Made by a program: the position numbers and the translations under genes
Part shown: one piece after another, positions 46,151 through 61,574 of the stretch
Position numbering within the stretch: the stretch's first letter is position 1
Layout: every line of letters starts with the position of its first letter
The notes under the pieces: model-generated
Database searches by the model: none
What the model was told of the DNA's origin: nothing
What the model saw: the letters and a program-made list of their open reading frames with translations, nothing else
NCBI GenBank assembly: GCA_013239625.1
Contig: MU053513.1
Coordinates: forward strand, 2,778,927 to 2,842,926
DNA from: Lama guanicoe
Taxonomy: Eukaryota
Reading direction: 5' to 3'
Length of the DNA: 64,000 nt

Positions 46151-47082
46151 TGTCAACAGCAAGTTTGTCATTCTGCTTTCTCCGTCAAAGCTGGTGGCAA
46201 GAGCTCCCTTGCAAAATGGTATCCTGAATGACTGAACTTTTTGAGGCTGGGTCCCCCTGAACTTGTACAAACATGGCAGATACCCATGCTGAGACAGAGG
46301 GCAAGGCCATAAGTCTTTAGAGAAGAAGGATGTGGGATCAAGGCTCTGATACGAAATATCACTGGTCTGGAGTATCTTTTCCTGAAGTTTCAATACTGTT
46401 ATCTGGAGTTTTTAACTGTGTGATTTTAAATATTTTGATGCTTTTGAGGCTTAAGGGCACAGGGTATAGTTACTTAGAGATGACATGTAAAATAAGGAGT
46501 GAAGAGTTATCAAAATGCAAAGTCTGCCATGGGCAACTACAAGGGGAGAAAAAATATAAACCACAGCTCATAAATTGTGCCAAGATTCAAACTGATAGCC
46601 AATCGTTGATCACTACGTGTTTCGCATCGTTAGAGGGGTCTGTGGAGAACGTGAACTACCAGCAGATGTGGAGTATCATGAGGAACAATTTTATAGGTGA
46701 GGAGAAAAAAGAAGAGTCAGATTAAATAAGACAATGACCAATTTTGACTGCTAAGATTCAATGTCCACTTTCAGGTTTCCTAAGTTACATATTTTTGTGC
46801 TATGATCTTACTTCAATAGATATAAGATGTTCAAATATAATGATCACAAACATTACTCCTACTCACCTGACTACAGAAGCCTAACCCACCCATGATAAAA
46901 TCTGCTATCACTCTTTCTACACATTTACCCAAAATGCTTAGAGGAAATCAGAAATTTTGAGTCCCTGACCTAGTCACTGGATCTAAAAGTAATTCAGCCC
47001 CATGATCAGACTAAATGTTTCCATTGAGAATGATTCTGACAACATGAAGAAGAAAAAGAAGTGCTCTTTAAACACTCCATCT

Positions 47083-47433
47083 TGATTTTCCATCAAGATG
47101 GTGGAGTAGTAAGACCACGAGCTCGCCTGCTCTCATGATTACAACAAAACCACAACTGACTGCTAAACAACCATTGGGAAAAAAAAGACTAGAGCTTAGC
47201 AAAAAAGATCATCTTCAACTGGAAACATAAAGAGGGAACCACAATGGAATGATAAACAACATATTTATACTGTATAGCACAGGGAACTATATTCAATATC
47301 TTGTAGTAACCTATAATGAAAAAGAATATGAAAAAAAGTATGTACATGTATGACTGAAACATTATGCTGTACACCAGAAATTGACACAACATTGCAAACT
47401 GACTATACTTCAATAAAAAAAGAATGAAAAAAA
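47083..47433 (+). mobile_element. Internally deleted (probably spliced) L1: ~170 bp 5'UTR start fused to ~180 bp 3' end + poly-A, with TSD
   Basis: Starts caagatggtggagtag..gagctc (L1 5' end). Junction at 47251/47252. Ends cttcaataaaaaaa. TSD aaa(c/g)actccatct at 47070-47082 and 47434-47446. Confidence 0.85.
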
Positions 47434-47875
47434 AAAGACTCCATCTCTATGTATTAAATAAAGTAAATGAAAGATAAGAGGATGCTGGTTTGGGTTATGA
47501 CCTTGTTACTGCTTACAGCAATTTCTAATGCAAATAAATAAGAATGAAGCCAGGCCCATTTAACAATTGTCTTTGAAGGCAATGCTGACTCCTGGAAACC
47601 CACAGTGCTGAAACTTCAGATGAGATAGTGGGGCTTGGCTCTGCAGTACATCATTTATTTGCTGGAATCAAAGGTTGCCTTGTTTCTTGACAGATGGACC
47701 CAGGGGACCAATGATCAAAGGGAAAGAAATGAGAAAGGGACTTTTTAGTGAATAGCAGACAAAGAACTTAGCAACATTTATCCTTGAGACTTTTCCAAGT
47801 TGTGTGATATCTAATACAATGACCGACCAGTAGCTTCCATTTTGTCTCAGGTTTTATGCTTAAAACATCATGGCA

Positions 47876-48839: not shown

Positions 48840-49960
48840 TAAGTAAACAAAGGGGACCTAATCAAACTTAAAATGCTTTTGCACAGTAAAGGAAACCGTC
48901 AACAAAATGAAAAGACAACCTACAGAATGGGAGAAAATACTGCAAGTGATGTGACTGATGAGGGCTTAATTTCCAAAATATACAAACAGCTCAAACAACT
49001 CAATATAAAATAAAGGCAATTCAATCAAAAAAATGCACAGAAGACCTAAACAGACATTTCTCCAAAAAAGACATACAGATGACCATCAGGTGTATGAAAA
49101 GATGCTAATTATTAGAGAAATGCAAATCAAAACCACAATGAGGTATCATCTCACACCAGTCAGAATGGCCATCATTAAAAAGTCTACAAATAACAAATGC
49201 TGGAGAGGGTGTGGAGAAAAGTGAACCCTCCTACACTGTTGGTGGGAATGTAAATTGGTGCAGCCACTTTGGAAAAAATTATGGAGCTTTCTCAAAAAAC
49301 TAAAAATAGAGCTACCATATGATCCAGCATATATCCAGAAAAGATGAAAACTCTGATTTGAAAAGATACATGTACCCCAGTGTTCATAGCACCACTATTT
49401 ACAATATATAAGACGTGGAAACAACCCAAAAGCCTATCAACAGAGGACTGGTTTAAGAAGACTGGTTTATGGAAGACATGTATATATACAATGGAATACT
49501 ACTTAGCCATAAAAAAGAATGAAATATTGCCATTTGTAGCAAAATGGATAGACCCAGAGAACATCATACTAAATGAAATAAGCCAGACACAGAAAGAAAA
49601 ATATTATACAATATCACTTATATGTGGAGTCTAAAAATAATACAAATGAATCTATATACAAAAAAGAAAAAATAGACTCACTGACATAGAAAACAAATTT
49701 ATGCTCACCAAAGGGGAAGGGGGTGGAATTAGGGGTATGGAATTAACAGATACTAACTACTATCCATAAAATAGATAAGTAACAAAGATTTACTGTATAA
49801 CCCAGGGAATAATATTCATCTTGTAATAACCCATAATGGAAAAAAATCTGAAAAATATATACATATATATATAAAACTGAATCACTTTGCTGTAACCTGA
49901 AACTAACAAAATATTGTAAATGAACTAAATTTCAATAAAAACAAAACCAAAAATAAATAA
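48840..49960 (+). mobile_element. Younger artiodactyl L1, 5'-truncated: ORF2 C-terminus + 3'UTR
   Basis: Frameshifted ORF2 peptides [34 protein letters not shown] and TMEYYLAIKKNEILPF..., then 3'UTR and A-rich tail. Confidence 0.95.
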
Positions 49961-50497: not shown

Positions 50498-50899
50498 TTT
50501 TTTCATTGTCTCATTTCTTTTTTGTTTTAACATTTTTTATTGATTTATAATCATTTTACAATGTTGTGTCAAATTCCAGTGTTCAGCATAATTTTTCAGT
50601 AATTCATGGACATATACACACTCATTGTCACATTTTTTTCTCTGTGAGTTATCATAATATTTTGTGTATATTTCCCTGTGCTATACAGTGTAATCTTGTT
50701 TATCTATTCTAAAATTTTGAAATCCCAGTCTATCCCTTCCCACCCTCCACCCCCCTGGTAACCACAAGTCTGTATTCTCTGTCTGTGAGTCTATTTCTGT
50801 CCTGTATTTATGCTTTGTTTTTGTTTGTTTGTTTGTTTTTGTTTTTGTTTTTTAGATTCCACATATGAGCAATCTCATATGGTATTTTTCTTTCTCTTT
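50498..50899 (-). mobile_element. Young camelid-type L1 3' end with 10-bp TSD
   Basis: aacattttttattgatttataatcattttacaatgttgtgtcaaattccagtg. TSD agactatctt at 50488-50497 and 50900-50909. Internal (TTTG)n. Confidence 0.9.
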
Positions 50900-51599: not shown

Positions 51600-53290
51600 T
51601 CAGTACTTAGAGAATGGTCATGCAGCCGTGCTCATCCTTCAGAGGGGAGACAGAGTTCTCACCTGGAGTAATGAAATAAAGAACAGTGGGCACAAACCTT
51701 GTAGCTGAAACTCCCAAACATGCACACTGAATGGCAAGGTCCTCAGCATCCCAGCAAAGTTACATCCCCAGGAGACTGAGGGGTTTCCTGAAGAAACTAT
51801 GTCTCCTTAGAGTAAAACCTACACATAATGAATTGATTCCTCAAGAAAAGTTGGCTCAGCAAGGCCAAACTACCACGACATAGAAAGCTGAAGTATGCTG
51901 ACATAGAAAACAAACTTACACTCACCAAAGGGGAAGAGGGTGGAATTAGGGGTATGGAATTAACAGATACTAACTATTATCCATAAAATAGATAAGTAAC
52001 AAGGATTTACTGTATAACAGGGGAATAATATTCATCTTGTAATAACCCATAATGGAAAAAAATCTGAGAAACATATACACATATATAAAAAACTGAATCA
52101 CTTTGCTGTACACCTGAAACTAACACAATATTGCAAATGAACTAAATTTCAATAAAAACAGAAACAAAAACAAAAATCCCTCCACCCAATATACAACTTT
52201 CAATGAGCTTTTATTCTCTGCTTTATTCTTAAACATAAATCAGCAGCAAAAGATTGCCATAAAACGGAAAAGCTTCTAAAATGAAAGCCAAAAATCAAGA
52301 CAAACAGAAAAAAAGGAAACAGTAAAAAGTAATATATACACATAATATGTGCAGGAAACAGAAAAAGTGTAATGACATGATGTAAATAAAAAAGATACCG
52401 CACCCATAAAATAAGAACAGACTGTTAGGGAACAAAAATCATCTAAAAATGCAAAAGAGCACTTGAACAGGAAAAATGTAACAGCTGAATATTAAAACCT
52501 AATCATTGGAATATACATTTAAGTAAATCTGCCCAAAAGCAGAATAAAAGAACAAAGAGGAAAGAAAAGAAGAAAAACCCAAAGAACAAAGCTATATCTA
52601 ATATAGGATTAACAGAAGTTCCAGAAAGAGAAATGAAAAAAACTAGACAGGATAAAATTATCAAAGAAATAATTTAAGAAAATTTCCCAGAGTGTAAGAA
52701 CAAACCAGAATCTCCATATTCAAACTGCTGACTGAAGCAGAGCACAATTCATTTAAAAGGCCCCACACTTAAGCATATCACATGGAAGTATCTTAACTCC
52801 AGAGATGAAGACAAATTCTTAAAGTTCCTAATGAGAAAAACATCAGTTTAGGCACAAAGGAGCCCAAAATTAAAAGAGTATCTTAGGAAAACAACTTCCC
52901 AGCTAAATAATATTCGTAACAAACTATCAATCCAGTGTGAGGGGAGACTCAAGACTGTTTCAAAAAAAAAAAATGCAAAACAACTTATCTCTTCTATCCA
53001 TCCATTCTTAGGAAGCTCCTGGATGATGTAATTCAGCAAGATGAAGGATTTACTAGGAAAGAGTAAGAAAAGGGTCCGGGAACCAGAGATGCAACAACAA
53101 ACGTGACGTGTGGATCCTATAATGACAACTATGTGAGAGGCCCGGAGGACACCTTGTCCAGGTGTGGCATATGTTTGATACTCAGGAAAAAATATTGATG
53201 TGCACATGGCAGTGCTGATGGACTACTTAGAAAACTATACAAGTAAAAATACAAGGCAATTACTATCACCGGAAAAACCGTTTTTTAAAC
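51600..53290 (+). mobile_element. Ancient L1/HAL1-like 5'UTR-ORF1 relic, interrupted at 51898-52177
   Basis: ORF1-like motifs gaagttccagaaagagaa...tcaaagaaataatttaagaaaatttcccagag. Ends in caaggcaattact. Confidence 0.65.
51898..52177 (+). mobile_element. L1 3'UTR segment nearly identical to 49681-49955
   Basis: Manual alignment gives roughly 15 differences over ~265 bp. Confidence 0.9.
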
Positions 53291-53332: not shown

Positions 53333-53432
53333 TTTTTGTTTTTTTTTTCAATTGAGGTCCTGGGGGTTGAACCCAGGACCTTGTGCACTCTAAGCATGTG
53401 CTCTACCACTGAGCTATACCCTCTCCCACCCC
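53333..53432 (-). mobile_element. Camelid tRNA-derived SINE (Vic-like), short form with intact 5' end and TSD
   Basis: Minus strand reads gggtaTAGCTCAGTGGtagagcac...ctgGGTTCAACCCCcagg...poly-A (A and B boxes). TSD aa(a/g)ctgacag at 53322 and 53433. Confidence 0.9.
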
Positions 53433-60019: not shown

Positions 60020-60460
60020 TTGTTTTTTCTTTCTCTGATTTACTTCATTTAGTATGATCATCTCTAGGTCCATCCATACTGCTGCAAATGGCATTACTTC
60101 AAAAAGAGAGAGACAAATACCATATATCACACATGTGGAATCTAAAAAAATGCACAAATGAACTTATTTACAAAAGAAAAACAGACTGACAGACACAGAA
60201 AACAAACTTATGGTTACCAGAGGGGAAGCGGAGGAGGGATCAATTAGGAGTCTGGAATCAGCAGATACAAATTACTATATATAAAACAGGTAAACAACAA
60301 GGTCCTACTGTACAGCACAGGGAACTATATTCAATATCTTGTAATAACCTATAATGAAAAAGAATATATGTATAACTGTATAACTGAATCACCATGCTGT
60401 ACACCAGAAACTAACACAACACAGTAAATCAACTCTACTTCAATAAAAAATAGAATGAAA
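60020..60460 (+). mobile_element. 5'-inverted (twin-primed) artiodactyl L1: 60020-60100 antisense, 60101-60460 sense
   Basis: Antisense block tctctaggtccatccatactgctgcaaatggcatt abuts sense block gacaaataccat...cttcaataaaaaa. The two blocks are contiguous in L1 order. Confidence 0.9.
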
Positions 60461-61574
60461 TAAATCTTTGTTTTGTTGCAGCACGAGGGTGCTTAATGAT
60501 ATAAAAAGAGGAGAGAGAGGAAGACAGAGAATAATAAAAAGATTTGTTCTACTTCACACAAGGAAGGCAGAGGCTATTGCCATGAATCTTTTATGAGAAT
60601 ATTAAGAAAGAAGAAGTCTGTAGGAATTGAATACAATTAAATGATTTATTACAAAGTCAGGATATGTTGTTTGATAGCATACCACATAATGATGAATAGG
60701 AGTGATTATTTAAGGAAAACCATAAGGCCTTCTTAAATGGACCAGAAGTCATCAGTATTTGAAAAATTAGTATCAAGGTTTGGTTCAAAACTTTAGAAGA
60801 TAAATTATCTCAGGCAAAAATAAGTTTAGATTAAGACTTGATCACACTTAGGATATTCAGTTCTTTATATTTTGACATTAAATCTTCAAATAAATTCTAA
60901 CTGAGAGCCTATTATTAGCAAGTAGATTCTTACAACTGATTTTAGAAATTGAGAACATACAAAAATGAAAAAAGCTCCAAATGAAACTAATTTTATTATT
61001 AATGTAAAATTATGTCTAGTTTTTTTCCGTAACAAGGAATTCATCAAGTTTAAAAAAAAAGACATTGAACACTCAGAGTCAACCAATGATATATTTATTA
61101 GAGAACAAATTCACCTTGGAAATTGGAAAAAATACATCTGTGAGAATAATCAGGCAATAGAAAACCCACTGAACAGGGTTGCCAAGGGGCAATGATATGA
61201 ATCCTAACCCAAGGTTAGGAAATGTCTCACTGGTTTTGTCGTATTGCACTTTCTGTTGGAATGGGTACACGGAAGTGAACAGGATTACTGGGCAGAAGGG
61301 GTTTGCAGAACCCTGTGTTGGCAACAGTAAGAACAGGTCAGCCGAATGCACAGCACACTGCACCCACGCGGAACTTCTGGTCAGAGCAAGGCTCCACTTT
61401 CCATCATGTCACCTGGGTTGGGGACTGGAGATAAAATTCCTAGAATACGAAATGGTTCCTAAAATTGGTGCTACCATAGTCAATAGTTATGTCAGTGTTC
61501 AAAATGGGGACAATTTTTATAATTAAAAAATCCTCACATATGTTGTAAATCATCCTAGACAAAAATAAATTTGA

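What the first reader, a model, noticed from the sequence alone, without database searches (positions are those of the whole stretch)
47070..47446. Mini-L1 made of the extreme 5' and 3' ends, joined at an apparent GT-AG splice junction (SpIRE-like, possibly a non-autonomous family)
Seen: a ~350-bp insert between 13-bp TSDs (aaa(c/g)actccatct) at a TT/AAA endonuclease-type site, ending in poly-A. Its first ~170 bp switch abruptly at ...ccacaatggaatg|ataaacaac... (47251/47252) into an L1 3'UTR. Other L1 3'UTR copies in this window have an AG immediately upstream of that same position (aaaatAG|ataag at 49773-49774; aaacAG|gtaaacaac at 60288-60289). The 49.7-kb copy also has a TACTAAC branch-point-like motif at 49751-49757. 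Recalled knowledge: the first part resembles the start of an artiodactyl L1 5'UTR, which continues ...gatg|GTAGGA at this point, and spliced integrated retrotransposed elements (SpIREs) are known from primate L1. Inference: an L1 RNA lost both ORFs as one ~6-kb intron and was retrotransposed in trans. If it keeps internal promoter activity it could propagate as a SINE-like, non-autonomous camelid element.
Basis: partly seen in the sequence, partly recalled or inferred. Interest (0 to 1): 0.75.

Follow-up and report, generated by a model that had tools for sequence, protein, structure and literature searches.

The report
L1 ends joined by RNA splicing
This 351-base insert holds only the first 160 and last 180 bases of an L1 jumping gene, most likely because the whole coding middle was spliced out of the RNA before other L1s copied it back into the genome, and at least one other locus has the same join.

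Summary
Confirmed. 47083-47433 is one retro-insertion (13-bp TSD, TT/AAA site, A-tail) made of an L1 5'UTR head and an L1 3'UTR tail joined at 47251/47252. Unspliced tails have AG just before the join (4 of 4 window copies; loose-end consensus in 4 of 4 sequencing runs). An unspliced homologous head, aligned gap-free over 52 codons as a spurious antisense ORF (host unnamed), forces GT at exactly 47252-47253; pig L1A consensus heads read GTAGGAGGGG there. Microhomology is one base. A contig 14% diverged carries the same join in register, so it is not unique. Best reading: spliced ORF-less L1 RNA, retrotransposed in trans, probably made repeatedly from full-length parents; a self-copying SINE-like family is untested (no genome held). 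The camelid parent's donor was not read directly, and the acceptor lacks a pyrimidine tract. It works like a SpIRE but is neither published class. This scan has already noted the same kind elsewhere in this genome and in three other genomes (AI notes, unchecked). Side finding: three published cattle L1 'subfamilies' look spliced at a matching donor.

The parts
47070..47082 (+). Left target-site duplication, at a TT/AAA endonuclease-type site
   Evidence: 12 of 13 bases match 47434-47446; chance 7 of 20,000
47083..47091 (.). Nine extra 5' bases, likely a micro-inversion of the RNA's 5' end (twin priming); alternatively a decayed family leader
   Evidence: Perfect 10-bp inverted repeat 47077-47086 / 47092-47101, six bases of it in the TSD; 7 of 63,940 window positions share this geometry. 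Against: one paralogous contig aligns from 47082 (record 2) and P0008 has a similar leader
47092..47251 (+). First about 160 nt of an L1 5'UTR (exon 1), with the AAGATGG start motif at 47095-47101
   Evidence: About 2,300-2,500 single-copy depth equivalents at the best bin in three DNA runs; homologous by eye to pig L1A1-A6 heads; 32 of 52 codons identical, gap-free, to P0014
47251..47252 (+). Head-tail join, likely a GT-AG splice junction; G47251 fits either side
   Evidence: P0014 forces GT at 47252-53; unspliced tails end in AG at this column; X4 record 29 crosses it in register
47252..47433 (+). Last about 165 nt of an L1 3'UTR (exon 2), AATAAA at 47412-47417, A-rich tail
   Evidence: 74-82% identity to four other L1 3' ends in the window
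47434..47446 (+). Right target-site duplication
49591..49957 (+). Comparator: unspliced L1 3' end with AG at 49773-74 and TACTAAC at 49751-57 (branch A at -19)
50516..50796 (-). Comparator: L1 3' end of another subtype, AG at the join column, no TACTAAC
51898..52175 (+). Comparator: L1 3' end 93% identical to the 49.7-kb copy, AG and TACTAAC present
60107..60464 (+). Comparator: closest L1 3' end in the window (82%), AG at 60288-89

Best explanation
The insert is a TSD-flanked, A-tailed copy of the two ends of an L1, likely made when the spliceosome removed everything between a GT donor about 157 nt into the 5'UTR and an AG acceptor in the 3'UTR, after which proteins of another L1 likely reverse-transcribed the 350-nt RNA into this site. 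Steps: (1) transcription of a full-length L1 (or HAL1) from its own start - inferred from the intact 5' end; (2) one GT-AG splice removing ORF1 and ORF2 - boundaries shown in homologues, the splicing itself inferred; (3) target-primed reverse transcription in trans - hallmarks shown, trans action follows from the lack of ORFs; (4) the same splice probably happened many times in transcripts of full-length parents, so the copies are mostly dead ends rather than descendants of a master mini-element - inferred by analogy, untested. Splice origin about 0.88; the whole statement including step 4 about 0.68.
For: Acceptor: AG at the join column in 4 of 4 other window copies and in the loose-end consensus at 47251 in 4 of 4 runs (613, 509, 444 and 172 records, agreement 0.55-0.61). 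Donor: P0014, 1 of 10 phmmer hits, aligns without gaps over 52 head codons (32 identical; 2 of 11 beyond the join) and its residues force GT at 47252-53 and GG at 47255-56 and 47258-59, the pattern of pig L1A1-A6 heads, 6 of 6 of which read GTAGGAGGGG within one base of this register (compared by eye). Two head-only contigs stop matching at exactly 47251 (records 12 and 28). Recurrence: X4 record 29 (163 nt, 23 other letters, 9 gaps) spans 47146-47315, and its distances to the end (72 at 47244, 68 at 47248) show no net gap across the join; the locus's own contigs differ by 0-1 letters in the DNA runs, so this is another locus. Microhomology is one G. A random deletion would start at GT and end at AG about 0.3% of the time. 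A donor at a matching distance is used in cattle: BosL1A6-A8 stop exactly where BosL1A1-A5 continue with GTAGG, and two of the three resume points are preceded by AG. Human L1 RNA is heavily spliced, most so in testis (PMC2896524 passages), and spliced L1 RNAs retrotranspose (PMC5860796).
Against: The donor was not read in a parent known to be from this genome: P0014 has no named host, the loose ends behind 47251 were among 1,639 rows not shown, and P0005 and P0007 cover the region only with apparent frameshifts. The acceptor is A-rich with no pyrimidine tract, and TACTAAC is present in only 2 of 4 window copies, which are 93% identical to each other. That this head type and this tail type lie on one full-length parent is assumed. 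Pig L1B tails have GG, not AG, at this column and resemble the window's last head bases, which allows another parse four bases earlier. Only one paralogous join is shown as a listed contig. Step 4 has no direct test, and earlier scan notes claim hundreds of copies, more than human SpIRE classes reach (131).
Confidence: 0.68

Rival explanations
1. Splice-born master element: one or a few spliced copies kept enough promoter activity in the 160-nt head to be transcribed and copied again, forming an ORF-less, Pol II, SINE-like L1 family.
For: The head keeps the transcription start region and the tail keeps a polyadenylation signal; the join recurs in register; earlier scan notes report from over 100 to several hundred copies in four genomes (AI notes, not tested here); bipartite ORF-less LINE derivatives do amplify in other clades.
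Against: About 80% or more of the 5'UTR is gone (pig L1A 5'UTRs 931-1959 nt); human SpIREs that keep 97 nt have reduced promoter activity; summed depth over the join was only about 20-33 single-copy equivalents against about 2,300-2,500 for heads (rough, not a bound); record 29 differs from this copy by about 7 net bases of indels in the head, which may mean different parent subfamilies (inferred). This copy is itself decayed (2 CpG left in the head).
Confidence: 0.2
2. Reverse-transcriptase jump or RNA recombination: ORF2p skipped from the 3'UTR to the 5'UTR of the same or another L1 RNA during TPRT, and the GT-AG ends are a coincidence.
For: Template jumping is a proposed source of internally deleted LINEs (PMC6740152 passages) and of L1 chimeras (PMC13174262 passages); the acceptor is weak; the likely 5' micro-inversion shows that this insertion was not a plain TPRT event.
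Against: Only one base of microhomology; GT and AG both fall exactly at the join (about 0.3% by chance); a second locus has the same register.
Confidence: 0.07
3. Post-insertion DNA deletion of a full-length L1 at this locus, with the second contig being an old segmental duplicate.
For: Old L1 copies decay by internal deletion (PMC5872511 passage); the flanks of record 29 were not seen.
Against: Exact GT-AG ends and no microhomology; no listed contig or joint shows a longer allele in three DNA runs (15 of 81 joints shown); 14% divergence from record 29.
Confidence: 0.05

Closest known systems
SpIREs of human L1 (Larson et al. 2018, PMC5860796; abstract, Introduction, one Results section, first part of Discussion and passages read)
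   Same: L1 RNA spliced at a GT donor early in the 5'UTR, then inserted with TSD, poly(A) and an endonuclease site; recurrent identical joins; a small share of 5' ends (about 1.8% in human).
   Different: [quoted passage not shown]
Bipartite ORF-less non-autonomous LINEs / SIDEs (RIME, NARTc, Vingi and RTE derivatives, Bov-A, Persaeus; PMC5786205 and PMC6740152, passages read)
   Same: Only the 5' and 3' ends of a LINE, no ORF, dependent on the parent's proteins, presumably Pol II.
   Different: Reported for RTE, Ingi, Vingi, R2 and CR1, not for the L1 clade, and ascribed to internal deletion or template jumping; self-propagation is shown there and not here.
HAL1 (half-L1; pig HAL1_SSc = L1A6 in PMC6501411 supplement 1, sequence read)
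   Same: Non-autonomous L1 derivative; the pig element has a homologous head and a similar 3' end.
   Different: HAL1 keeps ORF1 and is about 3 kb; this element has no ORF. A HAL1 could be its parent.
SpORF2 and other spliced L1 RNAs (Belancio et al. 2010, PMC2896524, passages read; the 2006 paper was not held)
   Same: Splicing from the 5'UTR donor removes large internal parts of L1 RNA; frequent in testis.
   Different: SpORF2 keeps ORF2 and is described as RNA; this is a fixed genomic copy lacking both ORFs.
Processed pseudogene
   Same: Spliced, polyadenylated RNA copied in trans by L1 proteins, with TSD and A-tail.
   Different: The source gene is L1 itself.

Membership tests
SpIRE (Larson 2018) | L1-derived insertion with TSD, poly(A) and endonuclease-type site | tested here: met
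SpIRE (Larson 2018) | Missing segment begins with GT in the unspliced element | tested here: met
   Met in homologues: P0014 forces GT at 47252-53 gap-free; pig L1A within one base. Not read in a parent assigned to this genome.
SpIRE (Larson 2018) | Missing segment ends with AG in the unspliced element | tested here: met
   4 of 4 window copies; loose-end consensus in 4 of 4 runs
SpIRE (Larson 2018) | Same join at independent loci | tested here: met
   X4 record 29, 14% diverged, in register; its flanks were not seen
SpIRE (Larson 2018) | Belongs to a published class (intra-5'UTR or 5'UTR/ORF1; ORF2 kept) | tested here: not met
   Acceptor is in the 3'UTR and no ORF remains
SpIRE (Larson 2018) | Splice reproduced in cells; promoter activity reduced | not testable with these tools
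   Needs a reporter or RT-PCR; RNA run X15 holds contigs only and cannot show transcription
Bipartite non-autonomous LINE (SIDE) | Only LINE 5' and 3' ends, no ORF | tested here: met
Bipartite non-autonomous LINE (SIDE) | Propagates from its own copies (clade with shared private mutations) | not testable with these tools
   No genome held; collections held no copies
HAL1 | Encodes ORF1p | tested here: not met
   351 nt; longest stop-free frames 52 aa (+) and 85 aa (-); the 85-aa frame has no Pfam match
SINE | tRNA-, 7SL- or 5S-derived head with Pol III promoter | tested here: not met
   No Rfam match in the element; the only match in the window is a tRNA-like SINE at 53353-53423; the head is L1 5'UTR

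The most novel reading that the evidence does not exclude
A splice-born, ORF-less 350-nt L1 derivative that became a self-copying Pol II 'SINE' in camelids: the first bipartite non-autonomous family of the L1 clade, arising from a 5'UTR donor that is conserved in position across even-toed ungulate L1s and that also produced whole spliced L1 subfamilies in cattle.
Probability: 0.2. Interest if true: 0.72.

Novelty: new variant of a known kind. Interest (0 to 1): 0.47.

Why it matters
It extends SpIREs beyond primates and to their limit: one splice that removes both ORFs and leaves a SINE-sized RNA that L1 proteins still copy. That gives a fossil record of germline L1 splicing, a host route for disarming L1, and a concrete path by which an L1 could give birth to a non-autonomous parasite of itself, something reported so far only for other LINE clades. 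It also warns that counting L1 5'UTRs as full-length insertions overcounts, and that some published L1 'subfamilies with 5'UTR deletions' (cattle BosL1A6-A8) may be splice products. The dead-end versus self-copying question can be settled with one assembled genome.

Tried and rejected
No whole genome was held. Pattern scans for the head end gave 0 viral hits, 4 metagenome and 7 prokaryote-genome loci, all chance, none with BLAST similarity to the window; a tail pattern gave 0 viral hits; phage and plasmid BLAST gave nothing. Word-based protein searches with spurious frames gave four tail-only hits or nothing; the full phmmer search then worked. Nine of its ten hits were not used for the donor: P0009-P0013 start inside the head, P0008 and P0006 lose similarity before the join, P0005 and P0007 appear frameshifted between the match and the join. 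A full-text motif search found four unrelated papers. Supplements of the camel TE paper and the horse L1 paper could not be read and may hold closer parents; the supplement of PMC5381506 had no hit. An alternative parse with the join at 47247/47248, using a tail variant like pig L1B, needs a one-base deletion and is contradicted by G at 47248 in record 29 and by the majority loose end; set aside, not excluded. Summed depth as a copy number: first read as an upper bound of about 25 copies, then dropped, because the tool warns against it, filters records and can miss short unitigs. The RNA fold is not unusual (z = -1.37). No host gene was found: 92 of 157 stop-free frames of 68 aa or more were scanned against Pfam with one sub-threshold hit. 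RNA run X15 covers the locus as contigs only and is not evidence of transcription.

Full report
Observation. A 351-nt insert (47083-47433) lies between 13-bp repeats that match at 12 bases; 7 of 20,000 random 13-mers in the window have such a partner at that spacing, and the rebuilt empty site reads TT/AAAC. The insert ends in AATAAA (47412-47417) and an A-rich tail. From 47252 it matches four other L1 3' ends in the window at 74-82%; the first 169 nt have no relative in the window. The window appears non-coding (92 of 157 frames scanned). A camelid host fits the roughly 2.0-2.1 billion letters of the DNA runs, the absence of a repeated young SINE and the low SINE share published for camelids (PMC8605555 passages); earlier scan notes also call this genome camelid. 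I did not establish the species.

The acceptor. All four other tails in the window have AG at the join column. When contigs of three DNA runs and one RNA run were laid on 46960-47559 at 80% likeness, the loose ends before 47251 gave an A/T-rich consensus ending in ATA before G47251 in 4 of 4 runs (613, 509, 444, 172 records; agreement 0.55-0.61). So unspliced tails read AG directly before the point where this element's tail starts. The site is atypical: no pyrimidine tract, and a TACTAAC with its A at -19 in 2 of 4 window copies and in the X14 consensus only. Pig L1B tails have GG at this column, so the acceptor is lineage-specific.

The donor. No genome was held, and the table of loose ends behind 47251 was not shown. 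Three lines still place a GT there. (a) A phmmer search with a stop-free antisense frame of the head returned 10 spurious ORFs. One, P0014, aligns without gaps over all 52 head codons (32 identical) and drops to 2 of 11 beyond the join; its residues force GT at 47252-47253, GG at 47255-56 and 47258-59 and GC at 47261-62. Its host is not given. (b) Six of six pig L1A consensus heads (PMC6501411 supplement 1; passages and part 1 of 56 read) are homologous by eye and continue GTAGGAGGGGC or a close variant seven bases after CCACA, where the window's head stops eight bases after it; this is the same letter pattern that P0014 forces. (c) Two head-only contigs stop matching at exactly 47251 (records 12 and 28). 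The two sides share one base, G47251, as the usual exon-end consensus predicts. A random deletion would have GT and AG ends about 0.3% of the time.

Recurrence. X4 record 29 (163 nt) aligns from 47146 to 47315 with 23 other letters and 9 gaps. Its distances to the end, 72 at 47244 and 68 at 47248, leave no net gap across the join. The locus's own contigs differ by 0-1 letters in the DNA runs, so this is a second locus; its flanks and TSD were not seen. The same column suggests join-spanning contigs in X1, X14 and X15 (33, 36, 38 letters), but these could not be told from the orthologue. Summed depth at 47248 was about 20-33 single-copy equivalents against about 2,300-2,500 at the best head bin; the tool warns that this is no copy number, and short or filtered contigs are missed, so I take it only as a hint that joined copies are a minority of heads. 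Earlier scan notes report the same kind of element 2.3 Mb away in this genome (over 100 copies claimed) and in three other genomes; I could test only that more than one locus exists.

Age and state. Both flank-to-element joins are present in runs of three organism labels, and the left one also in the RNA run (records 1, 8, 9, 16, 17, 25, 32); no empty-site joint is among the 15 of 81 joints shown. Fourteen per cent between two copies gives about 14 Myr at the rate quoted in PMC8605555 or about 30 Myr at a typical mammalian neutral rate (recalled). The head keeps 2 CpGs. This copy is an old, likely dead insertion.

The 5' end. Most paralogous heads start matching at 47093-47096. Bases 47077-47086 and 47092-47101 form a perfect 10-bp inverted repeat, six bases of it in the TSD; 7 of 63,940 window positions have that geometry (noticed after the fact). 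This fits twin priming (PMC2837659 passages): the top-strand end would pair with the AGATGG motif and copy the last nine bases of the RNA backwards, giving a purine-rich 5' end like the pig heads. A decayed family leader remains possible (record 2 aligns from 47082; P0008). I put the inversion at about 0.65.

Mechanism. Shown: TPRT hallmarks, head and tail identity, GT and AG in unspliced homologues, a second locus. Inferred: that the spliceosome made the join, that head and tail came from one RNA, that the parent was a full L1 (pig L1A1 is 5.8 kb) and not a HAL1 (pig HAL1_SSc, about 3 kb, has a homologous head and a similar 3' end), and that copies arise anew from parents. The last step rests on analogy: human SpIREs lose most of the 5'UTR and are dead ends, and this head keeps about 160 nt of a 5'UTR that is 931-1959 nt in pig L1A.

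Comparison. It works like a SpIRE and meets the structural tests, but it is neither published class, both of which keep ORF2. In shape it is a bipartite ORF-less LINE, a kind reported for RTE, Ingi, Vingi and R2 (PMC5786205 passages) and CR1 (PMC6740152 passages), not for L1; membership needs self-propagation, which I could not test. It is not a HAL1 or a Pol III SINE. Searches of the held library and passage searches in the camel, pig, cattle, dog and horse papers showed no description of a 5'UTR-to-3'UTR spliced L1. Belancio 2006 was not held, Belancio 2008 was not read, Repbase and Dfam could not be searched, and two supplements were unreadable, so prior description is not excluded.

Side finding. 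In the cattle consensus table of PMC13582161 (first 400 letters of each row seen), BosL1A1-A5 continue with GTAGG about 154 nt after AAGATGG, while BosL1A6, A7 and A8 stop at exactly that base and resume further on. The resume point of A7 is preceded by AG within A6, and that of A8 by AG within A7; A6's could not be seen. The paper calls these variable 5'UTR deletions. They look like intra-5'UTR SpIREs at a donor matching ours in position, though the head type differs.

Verdict. Real, splice-derived with about 0.88 probability, a new variant of a known kind. Interest 0.47; 0.72 if the copies prove to be a self-propagating family (about 0.2).

Noticed in passing
window 47077-47101: Perfect 10-bp inverted repeat between the TSD end plus first insert bases and the L1 start motif; likely a nine-base twin-priming inversion at the extreme 5' end.
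   Followed up: partly
PMC13582161 supplement table, rows BosL1A6-A8: Three published cattle L1 subfamilies break exactly at a GTAGG donor about 154 nt into the 5'UTR; two resume after AG. They look like unrecognised SpIRE subfamilies.
   Followed up: partly
PMC6501411 supplement 1: Pig HAL1_SSc shares the head type and has a similar 3' end; pig L1B tails have GG instead of AG at the acceptor column, a natural negative control.
   Followed up: partly
window 49681-49957 and 51898-52174: Two L1 3' ends 2.2 kb apart are 93% identical, far closer than to other copies: a local duplication or a young sister pair.
   Followed up: no
window 53353-53423 (-): tRNA-like SINE head, the only Rfam match in the window; resembles the camelid tRNA-derived SINE (name Vic-1 recalled, not tested).
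   Followed up: no
window 46984: All four runs have one more A than the window here (table 4): an allele or an assembly error.
   Followed up: no
table 5: Several contigs run from the L1 3' end back to 47250-47271, i.e. tandem repeats of the last 150-170 nt of the tail elsewhere in these genomes; some restart near the acceptor column.
   Followed up: no
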